32,000 bases of DNA from Motilimonas cestriensis (GTDB lineage Bacteria > Pseudomonadota > Gammaproteobacteria > Enterobacterales > CBDFNC01). The notes beneath the pieces were generated by a model. The model did not search any database and was not told the origin of the DNA. It saw nothing but the letters and a program-made list of their open reading frames with translations. The position numbers and the translations under genes were made by a program. Shown piece after piece: positions 4,615 through 15,370 of this stretch. The DNA is taken from assembly GCF_051055415.1 (NCBI RefSeq), contig NZ_CP170335.1. The stretch is one strand, 5' to 3'. How positions within the stretch are numbered: the stretch's first letter is position 1; each line of letters opens with the position of its first letter.

Positions 4615-6474
4615 TTATTTAACTTTTGATAGAGGAGTGGGGCGAGAAATTAAAAAGCCTTGTAGACCGTCAACGTACATATTTTCAAGTAATTGTTTCT
4701 GCTCTAGGTGTTCAACCCCTTCCGCAATCACCTGACAGCCCATACGGTGGGCCACATCGACAATCATACGTAAAAATTGTTGGTTGGCACTGTCGCGTTC
4801 AATATTACTGATCAGTCCCGCATCCACTTTTACAAAATCTGGTTTTAGCTCTTTAAACAAGCGAAATGAACCAATACCTTTACCAAATTTACTAATGGCA
4901 CTGCGACTGCCAGTGCGCTTTAACATATCAAACACACGTTTACTGGCAACTAAGTTACGATCTAACACTTCTTCATCAAATTCAAAAATCATCGATGCTG
5001 CAATGTTTGGTTCACGTAGTAATAAACGCTCAAGCCAGACAATAAAAGCACTGTTTTGTAATGAAGTGGCGGAAATATTAACCCCCCAACGGGCTGAGCC
5101 ATCGGTTTTATGGCGGCATTGGCTAACCATGGTTTCGAGAATAACTTGTTCTAGTTTTACAATTAGGTCCATACGCTGGGCCATAGCAAACACAGTTTCC
5201 GTTGGGATCATCGCGTTGTTTTGACCAACGAAGCGCGTAAATATTTCTTGGTACCCTTTCATGTTGCGATGAATGGCTTGGATAGGTTGATGCAGCAACA
5301 TGACTGCGCGGGTTTCAATGATTTCTTCAATCACCTTCTTCCAGTGCAGTTGACCTAAATTGGTTTCATTAGAGTCATTCTGCTCAAATGCCCAAGCATT
5401 AACGCCTTCGGTTTGTGATTTTGCTAAGGCAATATCGGCACGAGCCAATACTTGCTCAGGTAATTGGCCTGAAGAAATAGCGGACAAACCTGTGTAAGCC
5501 ACACTTTCTAAGTTATGCAGTGCTTGGTATTCATCAAAATGATGTTTTAATGTTTTAGCTAGTTTTTGCGCCGCGCTAATGGTCATGTTGGGGGCGAGTA
5601 GGGCAAAATCTGAGCCTGAAATACGGTAACACTGGCATTCAGGAAAGCGTTTAATTAATTGCACTAGCATGCGGCCGATATCTGACAGGTAAATATCACC
5701 TTGTTGATAGCCACGCTGTTGGTTGATGTTGTTTAATTCCGATGCGCGAACAAGGGCAAGGATAGCGGCGTTGCTGTCACCTTCAGAGCTTAATATTTGC
5801 GTTAGTTCTTTACGAAAGGCGTGGCGGTTATTTAGACCTGTCAAATTATCCATGTTAACTTGCTTAGCAAGTAACTGAATTTTTTGTTGCTGCTCTTGCA
5901 TCACTTGATGAAAGCGTTGTCTTTGTTCCAATAACTGTTCTGTTACTTGAGAAAAAGTGCTGAGTTGTGCGTCTTCTGAGCTGACTTCCTGCACTAAGCT
6001 TTTTTCTAAGTTCTTAATTAAACGGAAGTACGCCCAGTTTACCAATACCGCGGTTGCTATGAATAAAACTAATAATTGATAGAAAAGCGTGGTGGCTATG
6101 CTGGCTGTTGCTTGAAAGCTATTGATGTAATTAATACTTAATGTAGCGGTCTGAATATCGACTTTTTCGGTAGCGCTTGGAAATAGAAGTTTAAAGAGTA
6201 GTGAAACGCCTTCCGATGTATTGGCCATAAAAGAGAAGTCACCTGATTTATCGGTGATTTGTAAATGGCTTAGATGATGCTTAGCGGCAAGTTGGTCTGC
6301 AGTGTTTTGAGTTGCCCCTTTTATCTCAATCGTTTGAGTAATATCACTGGTGACATCTTCATTAACAACTGTAATTAGTGGTGTGAAATGAAGCTTAATT
6401 GCCAATAATACTGCTATCGCAGCAACCAAAATAATGGCATTGGTAATAATAAGGCTATGTTTGTACTCTTTCAT
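4615..6474 (-). CDS. Membrane-anchored signalling protein with degenerate GGDEF and EAL domains (CsrD/MshH-like architecture)
   Basis: 619 aa. The order is N-terminal TM helix, ~120-aa loop, second TM (LFYQLLVLFIATAVLVNWAYF), a coiled-coil-like QQ-rich linker, the GGDEF domain (LTGLNNRHAF...) and the EAL domain. The GGDEF signature is SGSDF and the usual DxD metal site reads RAS. The EAL motif is EIF and the DDFG(T/A)GYSS motif reads SKFGKGIGSF. KVD, EGVE and QGF are retained. Confidence 0.8.
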   Translation of the reverse strand: MKEYKHSLIITNAIILVAAIAVLLAIKLHFTPLITVVNEDVTSDITQTIEIKGATQNTADQLAAKHHLSHLQITDKSGDFSFMANTSEGVSLLFKLLFPSATEKVDIQTATLSINYINSFQATASIATTLFYQLLVLFIATAVLVNWAYFRLIKNLEKSLVQEVSSEDAQLSTFSQVTEQLLEQRQRFHQVMQEQQQKIQLLAKQVNMDNLTGLNNRHAFRKELTQILSSEGDSNAAILALVRASELNNINQQRGYQQGDIYLSDIGRMLVQLIKRFPECQCYRISGSDFALLAPNMTISAAQKLAKTLKHHFDEYQALHNLESVAYTGLSAISSGQLPEQVLARADIALAKSQTEGVNAWAFEQNDSNETNLGQLHWKKVIEEIIETRAVMLLHQPIQAIHRNMKGYQEIFTRFVGQNNAMIPTETVFAMAQRMDLIVKLEQVILETMVSQCRHKTDGSARWGVNISATSLQNSAFIVWLERLLLREPNIAASMIFEFDEEVLDRNLVASKRVFDMLKRTGSRSAISKFGKGIGSFRLFKELKPDFVKVDAGLISNIERDSANQQFLRMIVDVAHRMGCQVIAEGVEHLEQKQLLENMYVDGLQGFLISRPTPLSKVK

Positions 6475-6642
6475 ATCGCATCCAAGCTAAGTTAAGGCTG
6501 ATTCAATTATAGGCCTAGTTATGTTAATGGAGTCTAACATGGTATGTTCAACTACAAAAATAGCATATCTAAATATTGAGACATAAATATAATTGCGTCA
6601 GACATTTATTAAAACTTGAGAGAGGTGTGAAAGAAAAGAATG

Positions 6643-6718
6643 TGGCTCCTCCTGCTGGGATTGAACCAGCGACCTGCGGATTAACAGTCCGTCGCTCTAC
6701 CAGCTGAGCTAAGGAGGA
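6643..6718 (-). tRNA. tRNA-Asn (anticodon GUU), copy 1 of 3
   Basis: The reverse complement is TCCTCCTTAGCTCAGCTGGTAGAGCGACGGACTGTTAATCCGCAGGTCGCTGGTTCAATCCCAGCAGGAGGAGCCA, 76 nt. It has a 7-bp acceptor stem (TCCTCCT/AGGAGGA), anticodon loop CTGTTAA, T-loop GGTTCAATCC and an encoded CCA. It resembles E. coli tRNA-Asn. Confidence 0.95.
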
Positions 6719-6796
6719 ACAATTTTTACTTTGTAATCTTATTGACTACTAAGTGCACTGCACTTGAGGTTCAAGCGTCTTGCCTCAACCAGAATT

Positions 6797-6872
6797 TGGC
6801 TCCTCCTGCTGGGATTGAACCAGCGACCTGCGGATTAACAGTCCGTCGCTCTACCAGCTGAGCTAAGGAGGA
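6797..6872 (-). tRNA. tRNA-Asn (GUU), copy 2 of 3
   Basis: The 76-nt sequence is identical to copy 1. A 78-nt spacer separates it from copy 1. Confidence 0.95.
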
Positions 6873-6899
6873 ATGATTCTTTAATATTTGTTTGTTGTG

Positions 6900-6975
6900 T
6901 GGCTCCTCCTGCTGGGATTGAACCAGCGACCTGCGGATTAACAGTCCGTCGCTCTACCAGCTGAGCTAAGGAGGA
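6900..6975 (-). tRNA. tRNA-Asn (GUU), copy 3 of 3 (first transcribed)
   Basis: The 76-nt sequence is identical to copy 1. A 27-nt spacer separates it from copy 2. Confidence 0.95.
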
Positions 6976-7011
6976 ATCATTTACACAATGTGTCTCACAA
7001 CAACGGGGCGC

Positions 7012-11987: not shown

Positions 11988-13001
11988 TCAAAAAATATTT
12001 AGTCCAAATACCGCCTTAACATCAAGCAGTGTTTGCTCGGTCTGCTCTTTTGAGGTTTGACTGCCACGTTTTAAAATGGCCAATAATTGCGCCTTATCGT
12101 TTAAATATTCTGCCCGCTTATGGCGTATTGGACGAAGCAGCTCTTGTAGGCATTCTTCTAATATCTTTTTTGTTGTGCCATCACCCAATCCACCATGGCG
12201 ATATTGGCTTTTAAGCTGTTCAACAGTGTTTTTATCCTGATGGAAAGCATCCAAGTAAGTAAACACGACATTGCCTTCAACTTGACCTGGGTCTTGTACC
12301 CTTAGGTGATTTGGATCTGTATACATGGCTTTTACCGCGGCACTGATTTCTTGTTCAGACGCGCCAAGGTTAATAGTATTGCCCATGGTTTTAGACATTT
12401 TATTTTTACCATCTGTGCTGGGTAATCTCGGCGCGTTACTGAGCAGTGGTCGACATTCTGTCAGGACCTTTTTGTTTGCTAGGTGATTAATTTTTCTTAC
12501 TATTTCGTTAGTTTGTTCGATCATCGGAAGTTGATCGTCGCCGACTGGTATCAGAGTTGCGTTAAATGCAGTGATATCAGCCGCTTGAGAAATTGGGTAA
12601 GTTAAAAAACCGGCGGGGATTGAACGGTCAAAGCTTTTACTTTGAATTTCTGTTTTGACAGTGGGGTTTCTCTCTAGGCGAGCAATAGACACCAAATTAC
12701 TGTAGTACATGGTTAGCTCGGCAAGGGCAGGTAATTGGGATTGTAGACAAATGGTGGTTTGGTCTGGGTCGATGCCAACCGCTAAGTAGTCAGCAACCAC
12801 ATTAAGGATATTGGATGATACCTTCGCGGGATTATGCGCGTTATCAGTTAGGCCTTGCATGTCGGCCACCAGTATTGTTTGGTGGTGTTGCGACTGCAGT
12901 AATACTCTCTGTTGAAGAGAGCCAACATAATGGCCTAAATGCAGCGGCCCAGTTGCTCTATCGCCGGTTAAAATAATCTCTGGTTTAGTTGCTATGTTCA
13001 T
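11988..13001 (-). CDS. trpS: Tryptophan--tRNA ligase, divergent (TrpRS II-like) type
   Basis: A class I aaRS with HIGH as HLGH (TGDRATGPLHLGHYVGSL) and KMSKS as KMSKT. Its size (~337 aa) and motif context fit TrpRS, but it is clearly unlike E. coli TrpS ([25 protein letters not shown]...). I moved the start to ATG 13001 (MNIATKPEIIL), which has GGAG 8 nt upstream. The track's M at 13013 is a TTG. Confidence 0.85.
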   Translation of the reverse strand: MNIATKPEIILTGDRATGPLHLGHYVGSLQQRVLLQSQHHQTILVADMQGLTDNAHNPAKVSSNILNVVADYLAVGIDPDQTTICLQSQLPALAELTMYYSNLVSIARLERNPTVKTEIQSKSFDRSIPAGFLTYPISQAADITAFNATLIPVGDDQLPMIEQTNEIVRKINHLANKKVLTECRPLLSNAPRLPSTDGKNKMSKTMGNTINLGASEQEISAAVKAMYTDPNHLRVQDPGQVEGNVVFTYLDAFHQDKNTVEQLKSQYRHGGLGDGTTKKILEECLQELLRPIRHKRAEYLNDKAQLLAILKRGSQTSKEQTEQTLLDVKAVFGLNIF

Positions 13002-13099
13002 GAATATCTCCAAGTGAAAAAATGCTACTGGAGATAAAAAAGATCTGACATTCTTAGCTACCTACCAGCAGCTTAAGAATGTGAAAATTCCGCGCCGCT
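13002..13099 (-). promoter_or_regulatory. Structured trpS leader: hairpins, T-run and an SD-sequestering helix
   Basis: All elements are on the - strand. CGCTCT/AGAGCG forms a hairpin around the leader stop codon. A 10-bp stem with one bulge pairs CATTCTTAAGC (13081-13071) with GCTAAGAATG (13058-13049). T6 lies at 13041-13036, 7 nt after that stem. ATCTCCA (13035-13029) is perfectly complementary to TGGAGAT (13012-13006), which contains the trpS Shine-Dalgarno. Confidence 0.4.
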
Positions 13100-13153
13100 C
13101 TAAAAAGAGCGCCACCAGAAAAAGGAAATGGTAGGTGAATTAAATGTTTTCAT
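13100..13153 (-). CDS. Candidate 17-aa leader peptide MKTFNSPTISFFWWRSF with tandem Trp codons
   Basis: ATG AAA ACA TTT AAT TCA CCT ACC ATT TCC TTT TTC TGG TGG CGC TCT TTT TAG reads from 13153 down to 13100. An AGGA sits immediately 5' of the ATG, which is very short spacing. WWR matches the regulatory core of E. coli TrpL (..GWWRTS). It ends 98 nt upstream of the trpS ATG on the same strand. Confidence 0.45.
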   Translation of the reverse strand: MKTFNSPTISFFWWRSF

Positions 13154-13304
13154 TCCTTGAACTTATCAAGGAATTTTTGAAACCTCAAGGGTTAAATAAT
13201 TTAAGGCTGAAGTTTAAGTTAACCGTAGCAGTTATTTGACGATGACATCTGCTTGAGCGCCACGCTGACATTGTCTACAATAACGCACTTTATATTTTTA
13301 GGTC

Positions 13305-13559
13305 ATGAACATGAACGACACGCTATCGAAACCAGATTTACCTGATCGCCTATCTTGTAACCCACGTAGTCCAAATTATGTAGAAGAGATTTTTGAGCAC
13401 GATATTGGCATTCGACTTAACGGCAAAGAGCGTTTTGATGTTGAAGAATATTGCATCAGTGAAGGTTGGGTTAAAATTCCTTCGCCGAAGGCGCTAGATC
13501 GCCGTGGTCAACCGCTTTTGATCACCCTAAAAGGCACTGTTGAAGCTTATTATTCTTAA
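13305..13559 (+). CDS. DUF3297-like small conserved protein
   Basis: 84 aa. LPDRLSCNPRSPNYVEEIFEHDIGIRLNGKERFDVEEYCISEGWVKI...LKGTVEAYY resembles proteobacterial DUF3297 proteins as I remember them. The start may instead be the ATG at 13311. Confidence 0.6.
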   Translation: MNMNDTLSKPDLPDRLSCNPRSPNYVEEIFEHDIGIRLNGKERFDVEEYCISEGWVKIPSPKALDRRGQPLLITLKGTVEAYYS

Positions 13560-13803: not shown

Positions 13804-14388
13804 GTGGATTTTATACAACAAATGATAGGCAGTAGCGCCATTGAGTATATTGCCGTGACTTGTGGGTTTCTTAATGTTTATTTGATCATTAAACGGTCGC
13901 TGTGGAACTACCTGTTTGGTTTCATTATGGTGGTGCTTTACGCCAAAATTTTCTTTGATTATCAACTTTATAGTGATTCATTATTACAAGTATTTTTCTT
14001 TATCACGCAATGTTATGGCGTGTTTTATTGGCTGAAATATAAAGCCCCTGATGGCAAGGTTCAAGTGGCCTATCTAAATCATCGTCATTTTAGTCAGGGA
14101 TTGTTGGCTACAAGTGCATTGTGGCTTATTTTAGCCGTGGTGATGCAACAATATACTGATGCAACACATCCATTTTGGGATGGTGCAATTGCGGCGTTGA
14201 GTGTCACTGCGCAAATATTATTGATGCGCCGACATTTGCAATCATGGTATCTGTGGATTGCCGTTGACGTGTTAGCCATTGGACTGTTTATAGTGAAAGG
14301 TTTACTACCCACAGCAGCGCTGTATGGCGTGTTTTTGATACTTGCTATCTTAGGTTTATTACAATGGCAGAGAGCATCACGTGACTAG
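13804..14388 (+). CDS. pnuC: Nicotinamide riboside transporter PnuC
   Basis: 194 aa with a GTG start and GGAG 7-8 nt upstream. MDF...NYLFGFIMVVLYAKIFFDYQLYSDSLLQVFFFITQCYGVFYW parallels E. coli PnuC (NYFFGLINVTLFGIIFFQIQLYASLLLQVFFFAANIYGWYAW). The protein is polytopic. Confidence 0.9.
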   Translation: MDFIQQMIGSSAIEYIAVTCGFLNVYLIIKRSLWNYLFGFIMVVLYAKIFFDYQLYSDSLLQVFFFITQCYGVFYWLKYKAPDGKVQVAYLNHRHFSQGLLATSALWLILAVVMQQYTDATHPFWDGAIAALSVTAQILLMRRHLQSWYLWIAVDVLAIGLFIVKGLLPTAALYGVFLILAILGLLQWQRASRD

Positions 14389-15370
14389 AGGCTTATATCT
14401 TGGCAAGTTCATGCCTATTCATCATGGTCATCTGTGGGTGATTGACACCGCAGCTCAACTTGTGGATGAGCTCACCGTATTAGTATGCGCAGTTAGCCAA
14501 GAGCCAATTGATGGCCGTTTACGTAGCCACTGGGTGAGAAGCAGTGTTAGCGAGAACATTCAGGTGCGTGAACTTTTTGATGATTCATTACCTCAACAGC
14601 CGGAGGACGACCCCGACTTTTGGCCAAAATGGCGTGATGCGCTTAGCCCATTTGGCCCTTTTGACTATGTTTTTGGTGGGGAAGATTACGTGGTGCAACT
14701 TGCTTACGAAATTGGCGCCGTTGCGGTGCCGCTGGGCCGCAGTAGCGTTAACATTTCAGCTACTATGATCAGAAATGCCCCCTATGAACATTGGCGTTAT
14801 ATACCCACCGCCGTACGGGCTCATTTTCAGCGTCGTGTTACGTTTTTAGGGCCTGAGAGCACGGGCAAGTCGACTTTGTCAGCGCGGTTGGCACAGCGGC
14901 TTGATCCTAGTGGTCAATTGAGCAATCTGATGACGGAATATGGTCGTATTTATGATGCTTCCCTCAAGCAAGGACAGAACTGGACGCGGCAAGATTTTCG
15001 TAGCTTAACACACACTCACATTGCAATGCGTAATGCGCTTGCTAAGCACGCTGGGCCTTATCTGATAGAAGACACCGATCTGATCCAAACCATGGCTTGG
15101 CAGCGATTGTTAATGGGAGAGGTGGATAGTCAGGACTACCCGTTACAGGATTTCGCTGATTTATACTTATTATTATCGCCTGATGTGCCTTGGATTGACG
15201 ATGGTACTCGTTATGGCGAATCATTTCGCGTTGATATGTTTGAGTTTTTAAAAACGCAACTAGAATGTTTAGGCTTGCGATTTGTCGTGATTGATGGCAA
15301 TGACTGGAATAGGCGAGAGCAGTTGGTGGATGATGCGGTAGATAAGCTACTTAACCTGAGCTCTGGATAA
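14381..15370 (+). CDS. nadR: NadR-type NMN adenylyltransferase / ribosylnicotinamide kinase lacking the N-terminal HTH domain
   Basis: 329 aa with a GTG start overlapping the pnuC stop by 8 nt. It has the nucleotidyltransferase motif GKFMPIHHGH and the Walker A GPESTGKST of the kinase domain. It is ~80 aa shorter than E. coli NadR at the N-terminus. Confidence 0.85.
   Translation: MTRGLYLGKFMPIHHGHLWVIDTAAQLVDELTVLVCAVSQEPIDGRLRSHWVRSSVSENIQVRELFDDSLPQQPEDDPDFWPKWRDALSPFGPFDYVFGGEDYVVQLAYEIGAVAVPLGRSSVNISATMIRNAPYEHWRYIPTAVRAHFQRRVTFLGPESTGKSTLSARLAQRLDPSGQLSNLMTEYGRIYDASLKQGQNWTRQDFRSLTHTHIAMRNALAKHAGPYLIEDTDLIQTMAWQRLLMGEVDSQDYPLQDFADLYLLLSPDVPWIDDGTRYGESFRVDMFEFLKTQLECLGLRFVVIDGNDWNRREQLVDDAVDKLLNLSSG

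What the first reader, a model, noticed from the sequence alone, without database searches (positions are those of the whole stretch)
13002..13153. Trp-Trp leader peptide and switch-like leader RNA upstream of a divergent (type II-like) tryptophanyl-tRNA synthetase
Seen in the sequence, on the - strand:
- A 17-codon ORF, MKTFNSPTISFFWWRSF*, runs from 13153 to 13100. It carries adjacent TGG TGG codons followed by Arg, the same WWR core as E. coli trpL.
- It ends 98 nt before the trpS ATG.
- A CGCTCT/AGAGCG hairpin spans the leader stop codon.
- A 10-bp bulged hairpin follows (13081-13049), then a T6 run 7 nt later.
- ATCTCCA (13035-13029) is perfectly complementary to TGGAGAT covering the trpS Shine-Dalgarno (13012-13006).
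- ACCTACCA inside the leader ORF (13136-13129) is perfectly complementary to TGGTAGGT in the hairpin loop (13067-13060), so mutually exclusive folds are plausible.

Established knowledge: ribosome stalling at tandem Trp codons controls trp operons. From memory, an auxiliary indolmycin-resistant trpRS1 of Streptomyces coelicolor is controlled by such an attenuator.

Inference: this gene encodes an auxiliary TrpRS induced by Trp-tRNA shortage or by TrpRS inhibitors. I am not aware of this arrangement being described for a gammaproteobacterial trpS.

Caveats: the T-run is not adjacent to the stem, the leader RBS spacing is poor, and I could not derive a clean 1:2/2:3/3:4 model by eye.
Basis: partly seen in the sequence, partly recalled or inferred. 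Interest (0 to 1): 0.75.

Follow-up and report, generated by a model that had tools for sequence, protein, structure and literature searches.

The report
Tryptophan-codon leader switch controlling type-II trpS
A short upstream mini-gene with two adjacent tryptophan codons, followed by RNA hairpins that can re-pair, most likely switches on a second-type tryptophanyl-tRNA synthetase when charged tRNA-Trp runs short; the same design is already known in Streptomyces but has apparently not been described in marine gammaproteobacteria.

Summary
The window comes from Motilimonas cestriensis. At 13153-13100 (-) lies the ORF MKTFNSPTISFFWWRSF*, followed by three hairpins and then a TrpRS gene of the Deinococcus "TrpRS II" type.

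An exact-motif scan found the same leader in 85 genomes (Vibrio, Photobacterium, Pseudoalteromonas, Alteromonas and others, plus one Streptomyces). A TrpRS-II gene lay downstream in all 81 loci with enough sequence.

- A conserved promoter places the transcription start at or next to the leader ATG, so the mini-ORF is probably leaderless. This explains the "poor RBS".
- A classical 1:2 / 2:3 / 3:4 scheme exists and shows covariation.
- The anti-Shine-Dalgarno strand is the reverse complement of the apex of hairpin 3:4. This is the best-supported helix (98.7% paired, 34 compensatory cells).

Streptomyces trpS leaders share the WWRS-stop motif and hairpin 1:2, and classical attenuators were predicted there in 2005. 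Plasmid-borne relatives in E. coli and Klebsiella have the same architecture with a textbook terminator.

Verdict: a ribosome-mediated Trp attenuator, and a new member of a known kind. Induction, the translational tier and auxiliary status in this genome are untested.

The parts
13183..13188 (-). -35 box TTGAGG of the leader promoter
   Evidence: TTG is aligned in at least 90% of 76 related leaders. The spacer to the -10 box is exactly 17 nt in 76 of 76.
13160..13168 (-). Extended -10 box, TG-A-TAAGTT
   Evidence: TGn is present in 65 of 76 and the hexamer is TAnnnT. Exactly 6 nt separate it from the leader ATG in 59 of 76 (7-10 nt in the rest). This places +1 at or next to the A of the ATG, giving a leaderless leader ORF (inference from the standard -10 to +1 distance).
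13100..13153 (-). Leader ORF MKTFNSPTISFFWWRSF* (17 codons plus TAG)
   Evidence: In 76 relatives the ORF is 16-20 codons and always ends WWRS(x)*. Length changes between the fixed ATG and WW are multiples of 3, and third codon positions are the most variable.
13112..13117 (-). Tandem Trp codons UGG UGG (the proposed sensing site)
   Evidence: Invariant in all relatives, including those retrieved by protein rather than by motif. Also present in Streptomyces and plasmid lineages.
13088..13120 (-). P1 (segments 1:2). Core CGCUCU/AGAGCG, extended through the Trp codons, with the stop codon in the loop and 3' arm.
   Evidence: -16.5 kcal/mol. P1 is part of the RNAalifold consensus. Compensatory changes appear in other lineages: Streptomyces CUCC/GGAG and plasmid GCUGCCUU/AAGGCGGC.
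13067..13099 (-). Alternative helix 2:3 (a:b, putative antiterminator): AGCGGC..GGAAU with AUUCU...GCUGCU
   Evidence: It forms in the MFE when a ribosome is placed on the Trp codons. It is 94.3% paired in 76 leaders. Other lineages use different sequences: UUGAAUA/UGUUCAA in Pseudoalteromonas and UGAUAUAG/CUAUUUCA in Photobacterium (read by eye).
13048..13082 (-). P2 (segments 3:4), 15 bp plus one bulge with a GGUA loop; terminator-like hairpin
   Evidence: -17.8 kcal/mol. Eight of 15 pairs show changes on both sides.
13036..13043 (-). U-rich tract UCUUUUUU after P2
   Evidence: In the window it follows the P2 core stem only after a 5-nt gap (CAGAU), which a weak 3-bp extension can bridge. 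In 48 of 75 relatives at least 5 of the 9 nt after the hairpin are U. The tool's terminator scan finds nothing in the window.
13024..13037 (-). Segment d, UUAUCUCCAGUAGC: the anti-SD strand, which is also the reverse complement of the P2 apex
   Evidence: b:d (GCUGCUGG/CCAGUAGC) is 98.7% paired, with 3 covarying pairs and 34 double-change cells. RNAalifold picks it as a consensus helix. c:d (GG.AGGUA/UAUCU.CC) is 85.6% paired. The duplex has z = -4.0 against shuffles.
13005..13036 (-). P3 (segments 5:6), the hairpin that sequesters the trpS Shine-Dalgarno
   Evidence: -9.2 kcal/mol. It is 84% paired. Outer pairs covary between lineages: UAUCUCC/GGAGAUA, CUGUCUC/GAGACAG, CUCUCC/GGAGAG.
13008..13011 (-). 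Shine-Dalgarno GGAG of trpS
   Evidence: Six nt upstream of ATG 13001. Conserved.
11988..13001 (-). trpS, type-II tryptophanyl-tRNA synthetase (337 aa)
   Evidence: TIGR00233 scores 233.5 bits against a cutoff of 176.75. It is 100% identical to a Motilimonas cestriensis protein. The best solved relatives are D. radiodurans TrpRS II.

Best explanation
This is a ribosome-mediated, leader-peptide attenuator that senses charged tRNA-Trp and controls a type-II TrpRS gene. It probably acts at two levels.

Shown by sequence and comparison:
- A conserved promoter starts the transcript at or next to the leader AUG.
- A 16-20-codon ORF ends in UGG UGG CGC UCN (x) stop.
- Six RNA segments can form five helices under selection: 1:2 (P1), 2:3, 3:4 (P2), 5:6 (P3, which hides the trpS SD), and segment 5 with the apex of P2.

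Inferred mechanism:
1. When Trp-tRNA is plentiful, the ribosome runs to the stop codon inside P1 and covers segment 2. P2 then forms, and transcription ends at the following U-rich tract. Any read-through transcript folds into P3 and is not translated.
2. When Trp-tRNA is scarce, because of Trp starvation or inhibition of the housekeeping TrpRS, the ribosome stalls on the two UGG codons. This frees segment 2, which pairs with segment 3 and blocks P2.
3. RNA polymerase reads through. The unpaired P2 apex contains an SD-like GG(N)AGGUA. It captures the anti-SD strand before the real SD is made.
4. Once the ribosome leaves and P1 re-forms, this pairing zips into a 14-bp apex:anti-SD hairpin. That hairpin leaves the trpS SD open and is kinetically locked.

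Only antiterminated transcripts would therefore be translatable.
For: Gene identity:
- The enzyme is TrpRS II type.

Distribution:
- The motif TGGTGGCGCTCTNNNTAGAGCGGC occurs in 85 species genomes. About 0.3 chance hits are expected in 596 Gb on both strands (my calculation, assuming uniform base composition).
- A TrpRS-II gene follows 115-190 nt downstream in 81 of the 81 loci with enough sequence.

Translation of the leader:
- The ATG sits 6 nt after a conserved extended -10 box in 59 of 76 leaders, and the -35/-10 spacer is 17 nt in 76 of 76.
- ORF lengths are 16-20 codons and in frame, and third codon positions are the most variable.

Classical geometry:
- With a ribosome on the UGG codons, the MFE switches to helix 2:3 in the window, L003 and L005.
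- P1+P2+P3 are 88.8% paired, with 12 covarying pairs. Helix 2:3 is 94.3% paired.

Coupling to translation:
- b:d is 98.7% paired with 34 compensatory cells.
- RNAalifold independently returns P1 + b:d as the consensus.
- The post-terminator segment is complementary to the terminator in the marine, plasmid and Streptomyces lineages (z = -2 to -4.9 in 7 of 8 tested).

Kinetics (findpath heuristic), in kcal/mol:
- 2:3 to P2: barrier 10.6-11.4.
- 2:3 to 2:3 plus apex:anti-SD: barrier 4.9.
- Zippering to the ON hairpin (-16.5): barrier 0.
- ON to OFF: about 21. OFF to ON: about 30.

Related lineages:
- Streptomyces leaders are MTCTPCLCWWRSP*, MTSVPCRNWWRSS* and MHLSSCLSWWRSS*. They have the same P1 with a U-A to C-G swap, the same 6-7-nt spacing from -10 to ATG, and GC-rich terminators by eye.
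- E. coli plasmid copies have WWLP(S/A)* leaders, and one has a terminator the tool recognises (10 bp, 7 GC, tail TTGTTTCTGA).

Literature and databases:
- From my memory only, not retrievable here: Kitabatake et al. 2002 and Vecchione & Sello 2008 showed induction of S. coelicolor trpRS1 by indolmycin through a ribosome-mediated attenuator.
- There is a sub-threshold Rfam Trp_leader hit on the right strand and place (18.6 bits, E = 0.29).
Against: - No expression data exist for this locus.
- P2 in the window is not a textbook terminator. The U6 run starts 7 nt after the 15-bp stem and the tool's scan finds none. In Pseudoalteromonas and some Photobacterium the tract after P2 is U-poor (2-3 U of 9).
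- Equilibrium folding keeps the SD closed in every state. P(GGAG unpaired) is 0.018 with 2:3 enforced and 0.004 with P1+P2 enforced. The translational tier therefore rests on a kinetic argument from a heuristic that ignores ribosomes, polymerase speed and pseudoknots.
- In the stalled state 2:3 + P3 (-20.6) is more stable than 2:3 + apex:anti-SD (-15.4), with a barrier of only 7.5 kcal/mol. The open state needs timely withdrawal of segment 2 or capture by a 30S subunit.
- P1 was fixed by my search pattern, so its covariation cannot be judged within the 76-leader alignment.
- The leaderless start is inferred from spacing, not from a mapped 5' end.
- c:d has weak statistical support, because purine and pyrimidine tracts pair promiscuously (slid controls reach 76%).
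Confidence: 0.75

Rival explanations
1. Purely translational attenuation of the ermC/cat type. Stalling on the Trp codons only remodels the RNA so that the trpS SD is exposed. P2 is a structural spacer, not a terminator, and transcript levels do not change.
For: - P3 and the apex:anti-SD pairing are universal and are the best-supported helices.
- Terminator quality is variable. It is poor in the window and in Pseudoalteromonas.
Against: - After transcription, helix 2:3 (-11 to -14 kcal/mol) cannot displace P2 (-15 to -18) at equilibrium, and P2 to b:d has a barrier of 13-22 kcal/mol. A stalled ribosome on a finished mRNA should therefore change nothing.
- Sister lineages carry clear terminators at the same position.
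- U-rich tracts follow the hairpin in 48 of 75 marine leaders.
Confidence: 0.12
2. The conserved RNA is sensed by something other than a translating ribosome: uncharged tRNA-Trp (T-box-like), the TrpRS protein itself (thrS-like autoregulation), or a small ligand. The mini-ORF is incidental.
For: - Primary-sequence conservation of P1 and the P2 apex is unusually high, beyond what base pairing alone requires.
- UGG occurs in the P2 loop of many members.
- CUCCA in the anti-SD resembles the tRNA-Trp anticodon loop (my reading).
Against: - There is no T-box or other Rfam hit, even at E <= 10.
- The loop UGG is lost in L005/L094 and in Pseudoalteromonas (GAAA loop).
- The ATG is locked to the promoter, the frame is preserved across five length classes, and the stop codon is conserved while the preceding codon varies freely.
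- Independent lineages with different RNA sequences all keep tandem or triple Trp codons just before the stop.
Confidence: 0.05
3. Reverse logic. When the ribosome is not stalled, P1 forms, segment 3 is free to pair with the anti-SD, and the gene is ON. Stalling frees segment 2, which takes segment 3, so the anti-SD closes the SD and the gene is OFF. The enzyme would then be made only when Trp-tRNA is plentiful, for example for a non-housekeeping role.
For: - RNAalifold's consensus is P1 + b:d.
- With 2:3 enforced, P3 remains the equilibrium partner of the anti-SD.
- In P. luteoviolacea the gene sits next to the Trp-consuming violacein operon.
Against: - This ignores P2, which forms first and is more stable than b:d.
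- It conflicts with the terminator logic of the homologous Streptomyces and plasmid leaders.
- It conflicts with the reported induction of S. coelicolor trpRS1 by TrpRS inhibition (from memory).
- SD accessibility is about 5-fold higher, not lower, with 2:3 enforced than with P1+P2 enforced in 75 of 76 leaders.
Confidence: 0.05
4. The leader is a conserved but non-regulatory 5' UTR that serves mRNA stability or a fixed translation level, and the WW codons are a historical remnant.
For: No expression data are available. If this were the only trpS in Motilimonas, it would have to be expressed constitutively at some level.
Against: Five mutually exclusive helices are kept by compensatory change. 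The Trp codons are invariant at a fixed distance from P1 in lineages whose proteins are only 38-65% identical. Neither fits a passive UTR.
Confidence: 0.03

Closest known systems
Streptomyces trpS / trpRS1 leader-peptide attenuator (predicted by Seliverstov et al. 2005, PMC1262725; from memory, shown experimentally for S. coelicolor trpRS1 by Vecchione & Sello 2008 after Kitabatake et al. 2002)
   Same: - It controls a TrpRS of the same type-II subfamily (GDRPTG...LHLGHY).
- The leader peptide ends WWRS(x)*. The first hairpin is built from CGC UCN, the stop codon and GRAGCGGC.
- The ATG lies 6-7 nt after a -10-like hexamer.
- One Streptomyces genome matches the 24-nt marine motif exactly.
   Different: - The proteins are only 38% identical.
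- Streptomyces has GC-rich textbook-looking terminators, whereas the window has an AU-rich 15-bp hairpin with a displaced U run.
- In Streptomyces the downstream complementary segment matches the 3' arm of the terminator (GGCCGUCC, read by eye; one search supports complementarity to the hairpin, significantly in two of three genomes). In the marine family it is the reverse complement of the whole apex and doubles as the anti-SD.
- I could not retrieve the S. coelicolor locus or the experimental papers, so the link to the tested gene goes through relatives.
E. coli trp operon leader trpL (Rfam RF00513)
   Same: - Tandem UGG UGG followed by CGC close to the end of a short ORF (trpL ends WWRTS*, from memory).
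- 1:2 / 2:3 / 3:4 logic with the stop codon between segments 1 and 2.
   Different: - It controls biosynthetic genes, not a synthetase.
- The window scores 18.6 bits against a gathering score of 41, so it is not a member.
- trpL has its own SD and 5' UTR and has no SD-sequestering third hairpin.
E. coli pheM-pheST attenuator
   Same: An aminoacyl-tRNA synthetase operon in a gammaproteobacterium controlled by a leader peptide rich in the cognate codons. PMC1262725 cites it as the proteobacterial precedent.
   Different: It uses a different amino acid and an unrelated sequence, and it controls the housekeeping enzyme. No translational tier is known to me.
Bacillus subtilis trp leader: TRAP-dependent termination plus a trpE SD-sequestering hairpin in read-through transcripts (from memory)
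   Same: The design is two-tier. One sensing event decides both termination and whether the SD of the first gene is hidden, through alternative pairing of the anti-SD strand with an upstream leader segment.
   Different: The sensor is a Trp-activated protein, not a ribosome, and the sequences are unrelated.
ermC / cat translational attenuation
   Same: A ribosome stalled in a short leader ORF re-pairs downstream segments so that a hidden SD is exposed.
   Different: There the stall is drug-dependent and acts after transcription on four segments. Here there are six segments, and the energetics imply a decision made during transcription.
T-box riboswitches upstream of trpS in Firmicutes
   Same: They serve the same physiological purpose, raising TrpRS when tRNA-Trp is uncharged.
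   Different: They read the tRNA directly and have no leader ORF. No T-box match was found here.

Membership tests
Ribosome-mediated (leader-peptide) transcription attenuator | A short translated ORF carrying codons for the regulating amino acid | tested here: met
   The 17-codon ORF has UGG UGG. The ATG is locked to a conserved promoter, the frame is kept across lengths of 16-20 codons, and third positions are the most variable. Translation itself has not been shown.
Ribosome-mediated (leader-peptide) transcription attenuator | Mutually exclusive helices 1:2, 2:3 and 3:4, with the regulatory codons in segment 1 and the stop codon before or in segment 2 | tested here: met
   P1, 2:3 and P2 share strands. 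2:3 appears in the MFE when the Trp codons are masked. Pairing is 88.8% for P1+P2+P3 together and 94.3% for 2:3, with compensatory changes.
Ribosome-mediated (leader-peptide) transcription attenuator | Helix 3:4 is an intrinsic terminator (GC-rich stem immediately followed by a U tract) | tested here: inconclusive
   In the window the stem is AU-rich, U6 starts 7 nt after it, and no terminator is called. In 48 of 75 relatives at least 5 of the next 9 nt are U. A plasmid relative has a terminator the tool calls.
Ribosome-mediated (leader-peptide) transcription attenuator | Read-through increases when the cognate charged tRNA is scarce | not testable with these tools
   This needs Term-seq, Northern blots or reporter assays under Trp starvation or indolmycin.
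Rfam Trp_leader (RF00513) | Score at or above the family's gathering threshold (41 bits) | tested here: not met
   The score is 18.6 bits, E = 0.29, at 13034-13123 (-). No hit reached gathering in the window or in six related loci.
Streptomyces trpS-II (trpRS1-type) attenuator | A leader peptide with tandem Trp directly upstream of a type-II TrpRS, sharing the WWRS-stop motif and the stop-codon hairpin | tested here: met
   L014, L096 and L097 have WWRSP*, WWRSS* and WWRSS* with hairpin GCGCUCY/GRAGCGGC and downstream type-II TrpRS. Identity of these loci with the experimentally studied S. coelicolor gene was not tested.
T-box riboswitch | Match to the T-box covariance model (stem I, specifier loop, T-box antiterminator) | tested here: not met
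   No T-box hit at gathering in the whole window, nor at E <= 10 in 12950-13350.
TrpRS II subfamily (Deinococcus radiodurans type) | Closer in sequence to TrpRS II than to canonical bacterial TrpRS | tested here: met
   360 bits to 1YI8 and 2A4M ('Tryptophanyl-tRNA synthetase II') against 97-115 bits to canonical enzymes. 27% identity to E. coli TrpRS.
Auxiliary (second-copy) aminoacyl-tRNA synthetase | A housekeeping TrpRS of the canonical type is encoded elsewhere in the same genome | not testable with these tools
Indirect support: variable, island-like contexts, and relatives on plasmids of E. coli, which has its own chromosomal trpS by established knowledge.
Translational attenuation by SD sequestration | An SD-sequestering hairpin whose 5' strand has a conserved alternative partner | tested here: met
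   P3 is 84% paired. The alternative b:d is 98.7% paired with 34 compensatory cells and is part of the RNAalifold consensus.
Translational attenuation by SD sequestration | The stalled-ribosome state exposes the SD | tested here: inconclusive
   Equilibrium P(SD unpaired) rises only from 0.004 to 0.018. A kinetic route exists in the findpath estimates but is unproven.

The most novel reading that the evidence does not exclude
The leader is a self-contained, horizontally mobile 'sense-and-respond' cassette. It combines a leaderless Trp-codon mini-ORF with a two-tier switch, in which the anti-SD strand is the reverse complement of the terminator apex. Co-transcriptional folding would then leave a long-lived conformational memory, with ON and OFF hairpins separated by more than 20 kcal/mol. 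The cassette would travel with a TrpRS-II gene that confers tolerance to natural TrpRS inhibitors (indolmycin, chuangxinmycin) or to Trp drain. It would have moved between Actinobacteria, marine Gammaproteobacteria and clinical IncF plasmids.
Probability: 0.3. Interest if true: 0.75.

Novelty: new member of a known kind. Interest (0 to 1): 0.55.

Why it matters
- It would extend leader-peptide control of a tRNA synthetase from pheST (E. coli) and trpRS1 (Streptomyces) to a large, unannotated family. That family covers at least 85 species genomes of Vibrio, Photobacterium, Pseudoalteromonas, Alteromonas and allies, plus plasmid-borne relatives in E. coli and Klebsiella. No Rfam model exists for it.
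- The alignment, with five covarying helices, is ready material for a new RNA family.
- It offers a compact natural example in which one stalling event may set both transcription read-through and a lasting translational state.
- If the enzyme is insensitive to TrpRS inhibitors, as its Streptomyces relatives are reported to be, the leader would be the built-in sensor of a mobile resistance gene. That matters for anyone developing TrpRS inhibitors as antibiotics.

Tried and rejected
- Rfam: gathering-level scans of the window and six related loci found only tRNAs and an unrelated purine riboswitch. At E <= 10 there was only a sub-threshold Trp_leader hit.
It is 57.8% paired, the same as shuffles.
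- The perfect hairpin over the leader start (13174-13150) is not conserved and lies in the promoter.
- A second small ORF starting at AUG 13052 inside P2 is present in the window, but most relatives have GACUGU there. I rejected it.
- T-box-like reading of the loop UGG is rejected, because the UGG is lost in several lineages.
- An unbiased all-against-all column scan found no further partner for the P2 3' arm. It also showed a G-U-rich 1:3 pairing, which I regard as a by-product of both strands being complementary to segment 2.
- Equilibrium accessibility of the SD shows no real opening in any constrained state.
- Whether Motilimonas also has an E. coli-type trpS could not be tested. The single genome-collection scan went to the motif search, and the protein search lists only the 120 best hits.
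- The experimental Streptomyces papers could not be opened. One literature search was wasted on a loose term setting.
- Possible indolmycin insensitivity: the equivalent of Bacillus His43 appears to be Gln by eye and from memory. I did not verify this and do not use it.
- I did not build a covariance model.
Full report
**What is in the sequence**

On the - strand, from 5' to 3':
- a -35-like TTGAGG (13188-13183), a 17-nt spacer, and an extended -10, TG-A-TAAGTT (13168-13160);
- six bases later, the ATG (13153) of a 17-codon ORF, MKTFNSPTISFFWWRSF*, with the two Trp codons at 13117-13112 and TAG at 13102-13100;
- hairpin P1 (core CGCUCU/AGAGCG), whose 5' arm begins at the last base of the second UGG and whose loop and 3' arm contain the stop codon;
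- hairpin P2 (13082-13048; 15 bp, one bulge, GGUA loop);
- a U-rich tract (13043-13036);
- hairpin P3 (13036-13005), whose 3' arm is the trpS Shine-Dalgarno (GGAG 13011-13008);
- the trpS ATG at 13001.

The leader folds far better than shuffled sequence: -58.1 against -41.0 +/- 4.1 kcal/mol, z = -4.2.

**The gene**

- The 337-aa product passes the TrpRS equivalog model (233.5 bits against a cutoff of 176.75).
- It is 100% identical to a Motilimonas cestriensis protein.
- Among solved structures it is closest by far to Deinococcus radiodurans TrpRS II: 360 bits, against 97-115 bits for canonical bacterial enzymes.

'Type II-like' is therefore correct.

**Conservation**

Close homologues (80-90% identity) occur in many Vibrio species, Photobacterium, Psychromonas and Shewanella.
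- I fetched seven such loci by protein, not by motif. Each has a small ORF ending FWWRS(x)*, the same P1, and P2 and P3.
- An exact scan of one genome per species for TGGTGGCGCTCTNNNTAGAGCGGC gave 85 loci. I expect about 0.3 by chance for 21 fixed bases in 596 Gb on two strands.
- The 85 loci come from Vibrio (including V. cholerae BI-5D and V. mimicus), Photobacterium, Enterovibrio, Pseudoalteromonas, Alteromonas, Paraglaciecola, Agarivorans, Planctobacterium, Brumicola, Psychromonas, Motilimonas and one Streptomyces.
- In all 81 loci with enough downstream sequence, a TrpRS-II gene starts 115-190 nt after the motif.
- Rfam has no family for the element. The only hint is a sub-threshold Trp_leader match, 18.6 bits against 41.

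**The mini-ORF is probably leaderless**

In an alignment of 76 distinct leaders (A1):
- the -35 TTG and the -10 TAnnnT are conserved;
- the spacer is 17 nt in 76 of 76;
- TGn precedes the -10 in 65 of 76;
- the ATG follows the -10 hexamer by exactly 6 nt in 59 of 76, and by 7-10 nt in the rest.

With the usual -10 to +1 distance, transcription starts at or next to the A of the ATG. The same spacing is seen in the Streptomyces leaders and in at least one of the two plasmid leaders.

The ORF varies from 16 to 20 codons, always in frame between the fixed ATG and the fixed WW. Third codon positions are the most variable, with summed entropy 15.0 against 13.3 and 12.2. Translation is inferred, not shown.

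**The alternative helices**

I name the strands 1 (Trp codons + CGCUCU), a (AGAGCGGCGCGGAAU), b (ACAUUCUUA-A-GCUGCUGG), c (GGUAGCUAAGAAUGU), d (UUAUCUCCAGUAGC) and e (UGGAGAUA).

| Helix | Paired cells | Covariation |
|---|---|---|
| P1 + P2 + P3 | 88.8% | 12 covarying pairs |
| a:b | 94.3% | rebuilt from different sequences in Pseudoalteromonas (UUGAAUA/UGUUCAA) and Photobacterium (UGAUAUAG/CUAUUUCA) |
| b:d (GCUGCUGG/CCAGUAGC) | 98.7% | 3 covarying pairs, 34 double-change cells |
| c:d (GG.AGGUA/UAUCU.CC) | 85.6% | weak controls, because purine and pyrimidine runs pair promiscuously |

RNAalifold, run blind on the 76 leaders, returns P1 + b:d as the consensus. Strand d is in fact the reverse complement of the whole P2 apex, that is b-top, loop and c-top. 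In the window this gives a 14-bp duplex with one bulge (-20.3 kcal/mol, z = -4.0). The loop and c-top, GG(N)AGGUA, resemble the real SD.

**Geometry and energetics**

- With a ribosome placed on either UGG, strand a is free, and a:b replaces P1/P2 in the MFE of the window, L003 and L005. With a ribosome on the stop codon, strand a is covered and P2 forms. This is the classical attenuator geometry.
- Helix energies in kcal/mol: P1 -16.5, P2 -17.8, a:b -11 to -12, P3 -9.2, b:d duplex -12.4.
- At equilibrium P2 + P3 always wins and the SD stays closed. P(GGAG unpaired) is 0.004 with P1+P2 enforced and 0.018 with a:b enforced, and it is higher with a:b in 75 of 76 leaders.
- Sensing must therefore act during transcription. 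This argues that P2 matters as a terminator or pause signal.

Direct-path barrier estimates, in kcal/mol:
- a:b to P2: 10.6-11.4.
- a:b to a:b + c:d: 4.9.
- Once strand a is withdrawn, zippering into the full apex:d hairpin (-16.5) has no barrier.
- ON hairpin to P2+P3: about 21. The reverse: about 30.

These numbers suggest two long-lived conformers chosen during transcription. They are heuristic and ignore ribosomes, polymerase and pseudoknots. In the stalled state a:b + P3 is still downhill, with a barrier of 7.5. The second tier is a hypothesis.

**Is P2 a terminator?**

- In the window it is not a textbook one. The stem is AU-rich, U6 starts 7 nt after it (a weak 3-bp extension can bring UCUUUUUU next to the stem), and the tool calls nothing.
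- In 48 of 75 relatives at least 5 of the 9 nt after the hairpin are U. Pseudoalteromonas and some Photobacterium are U-poor or carry an extra hairpin plus U7.
- Related lineages are clearer; see the next section.

**Wider family**

- Streptomyces: in Streptomyces monticola, S. microflavus and S. litmocidini a type-II TrpRS is preceded by MTCTPCLCWWRSP*, MTSVPCRNWWRSS* or MHLSSCLSWWRSS*. P1 is the same, with a compensatory U-A to C-G change, and a GC-rich hairpin plus U tract follows.
- Literature: PMC1262725 predicted classical attenuators upstream of Streptomyces trpS and names pheST as the proteobacterial precedent. The experimental work on S. coelicolor trpRS1 (induction by indolmycin, ribosome-mediated attenuator) I know only from memory, because the papers were not retrievable.
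- Metagenomes: among 80 metagenomic TrpRS-II relatives, the two close ones (80-83% identity) have the WWRS leader. A 63-65% clade has MNINHAVLTVNRWWLPS*-type leaders. Others have WWRR* or WWW leaders. Most 51-58% relatives, from gut samples with low GC, have none.
- Plasmids: the 63-65% clade includes genes on plasmids of E. coli, Shigella, Klebsiella, Salmonella and Acinetobacter. There P1 is GCUGCCUU/AAGGCGGC. P2 is a GC-rich hairpin followed by a U tract, which the tool calls a terminator in pB379_2. The segment before the SD is again complementary to the terminator apex (z = -2 to -4.9).

The architecture is thus maintained while its sequence changes.

**What the gene is for**

This remains inference.
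- Contexts differ from genus to genus: next to smpB, next to a phage-type integrase, beside IS26/IS1/Tn3 on plasmids, and in two copies in some Vibrio. This fits an accessory, mobile gene.
- E. coli hosts of the plasmid copies certainly have their own trpS (established knowledge).
- In Pseudoalteromonas luteoviolacea the gene sits tail-to-tail with the violacein operon. Strains of this species also make indolmycin, and the reported cluster includes a Trp-tRNA ligase (PMC5069768).
- Either TrpRS inhibition or Trp drain would lower charged tRNA-Trp and would be read by the UGG codons.
- I could not test whether Motilimonas has a second, canonical trpS, or whether the enzyme is inhibitor-resistant.

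**Verdict**

It is a leader-peptide attenuator of the trpL / pheM / Streptomyces-trpRS1 kind, here in front of a type-II TrpRS of a marine gammaproteobacterium. It belongs to a large family that is neither annotated in Rfam nor described in the papers I could search.

New relative to the known kind:
- the apparently leaderless mini-ORF;
- the strongly covarying pairing between the anti-SD strand and the terminator apex, which suggests coupled control of transcription and translation.

My confidence is 0.75 in the attenuator assignment and roughly 0.3-0.4 in the kinetic two-tier mechanism.

Noticed in passing
window 6643-6975 (-): Three identical tRNA-Asn (GTT) genes in tandem, about 80-100 nt apart.
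   Followed up: no
window 13150-13174 (-): A perfect 9-bp hairpin (UUCCUUGAU / AUCAAGGAA) covers the -10 box, the AGGA and the leader ATG. It is absent from every relative, including the other Motilimonas lineage, and it lies mostly upstream of the inferred transcription start.
   Followed up: yes
L016 3679-7973 and L048 5892-7979 (Pseudoalteromonas luteoviolacea): The leader + trpS-II gene lies tail-to-tail with vioE and the other genes of the violacein operon, a pathway that consumes two tryptophans per product.
   Followed up: partly
L178 (E. coli pB379_2, IncFIB) 5832-6996; L179 (E. coli pKTa005_5) 5847-7002: - TrpRS-II genes with 62-66% identity sit on plasmids of E. coli, Shigella, Klebsiella (22 records), Salmonella and Acinetobacter. 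A more distant set (<60%) is in Staphylococcus (23 records).
- They are flanked by IS26, IS1 or Tn3-family elements, and one lies next to a predicted fosA8.
- They carry their own WW leaders, RRWWLPA* and NRWWLPS*.
- Only 2 of 5426 complete E. coli genomes have one.
   Followed up: partly
L013 1624-1723 (-) (Vibrio sp. F74): A purine riboswitch (74 bits) lies about 260 nt upstream of the trpS leader on the opposite strand, belonging to the divergent neighbour.
   Followed up: no
L070 + L080 (Vibrio pacinii); L023 + L089 (Vibrio sp. HN007 chromosome 2): Two separate leader + trpS-II copies occur in one genome.
   Followed up: no
L005 4281-5512 (Psychromonas MAG); L004 1323-1811 (Shewanella vesiculosa): The gene sits next to a phage-type integrase in Psychromonas and downstream of smpB in Shewanella. 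Both contexts look like integrated islands.
   Followed up: no
L026, L068, L082, L088 (Photobacterium), between P2 and the anti-SD: An inserted extra hairpin (AAUACG...CGUAUU) is followed by U7 (L026) or a U/C-rich tract, and there is a 15-25-nt insertion between segments a and b.
   Followed up: partly
L014 3067-3090 (-) (Streptomyces monticola): A high-GC actinomycete matches the 24-nt marine motif exactly, although the downstream TrpRS is only 38% identical. P1 is also invariant across all marine relatives retrieved by protein. The reason for this sequence-level constraint is unexplained. E. coli trpL also ends WWRTS*, from memory.
   Followed up: partly
window 11988-13013 (-): The mechanical ORF call extends trpS to a TTG at 13013, inside hairpin P3. 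The start with proper SD spacing is ATG 13001, which is also where homologues begin.
   Followed up: yes
window 13305-13559 (+), 13804-15370 (+): A DUF3297 gene is transcribed divergently from the leader promoter, with about 150 nt between the two starts. It is followed by pnuC and a nadR-like gene. uvrB lies downstream of trpS, convergently oriented. The same synteny is found in the second Motilimonas lineage.
   Followed up: no
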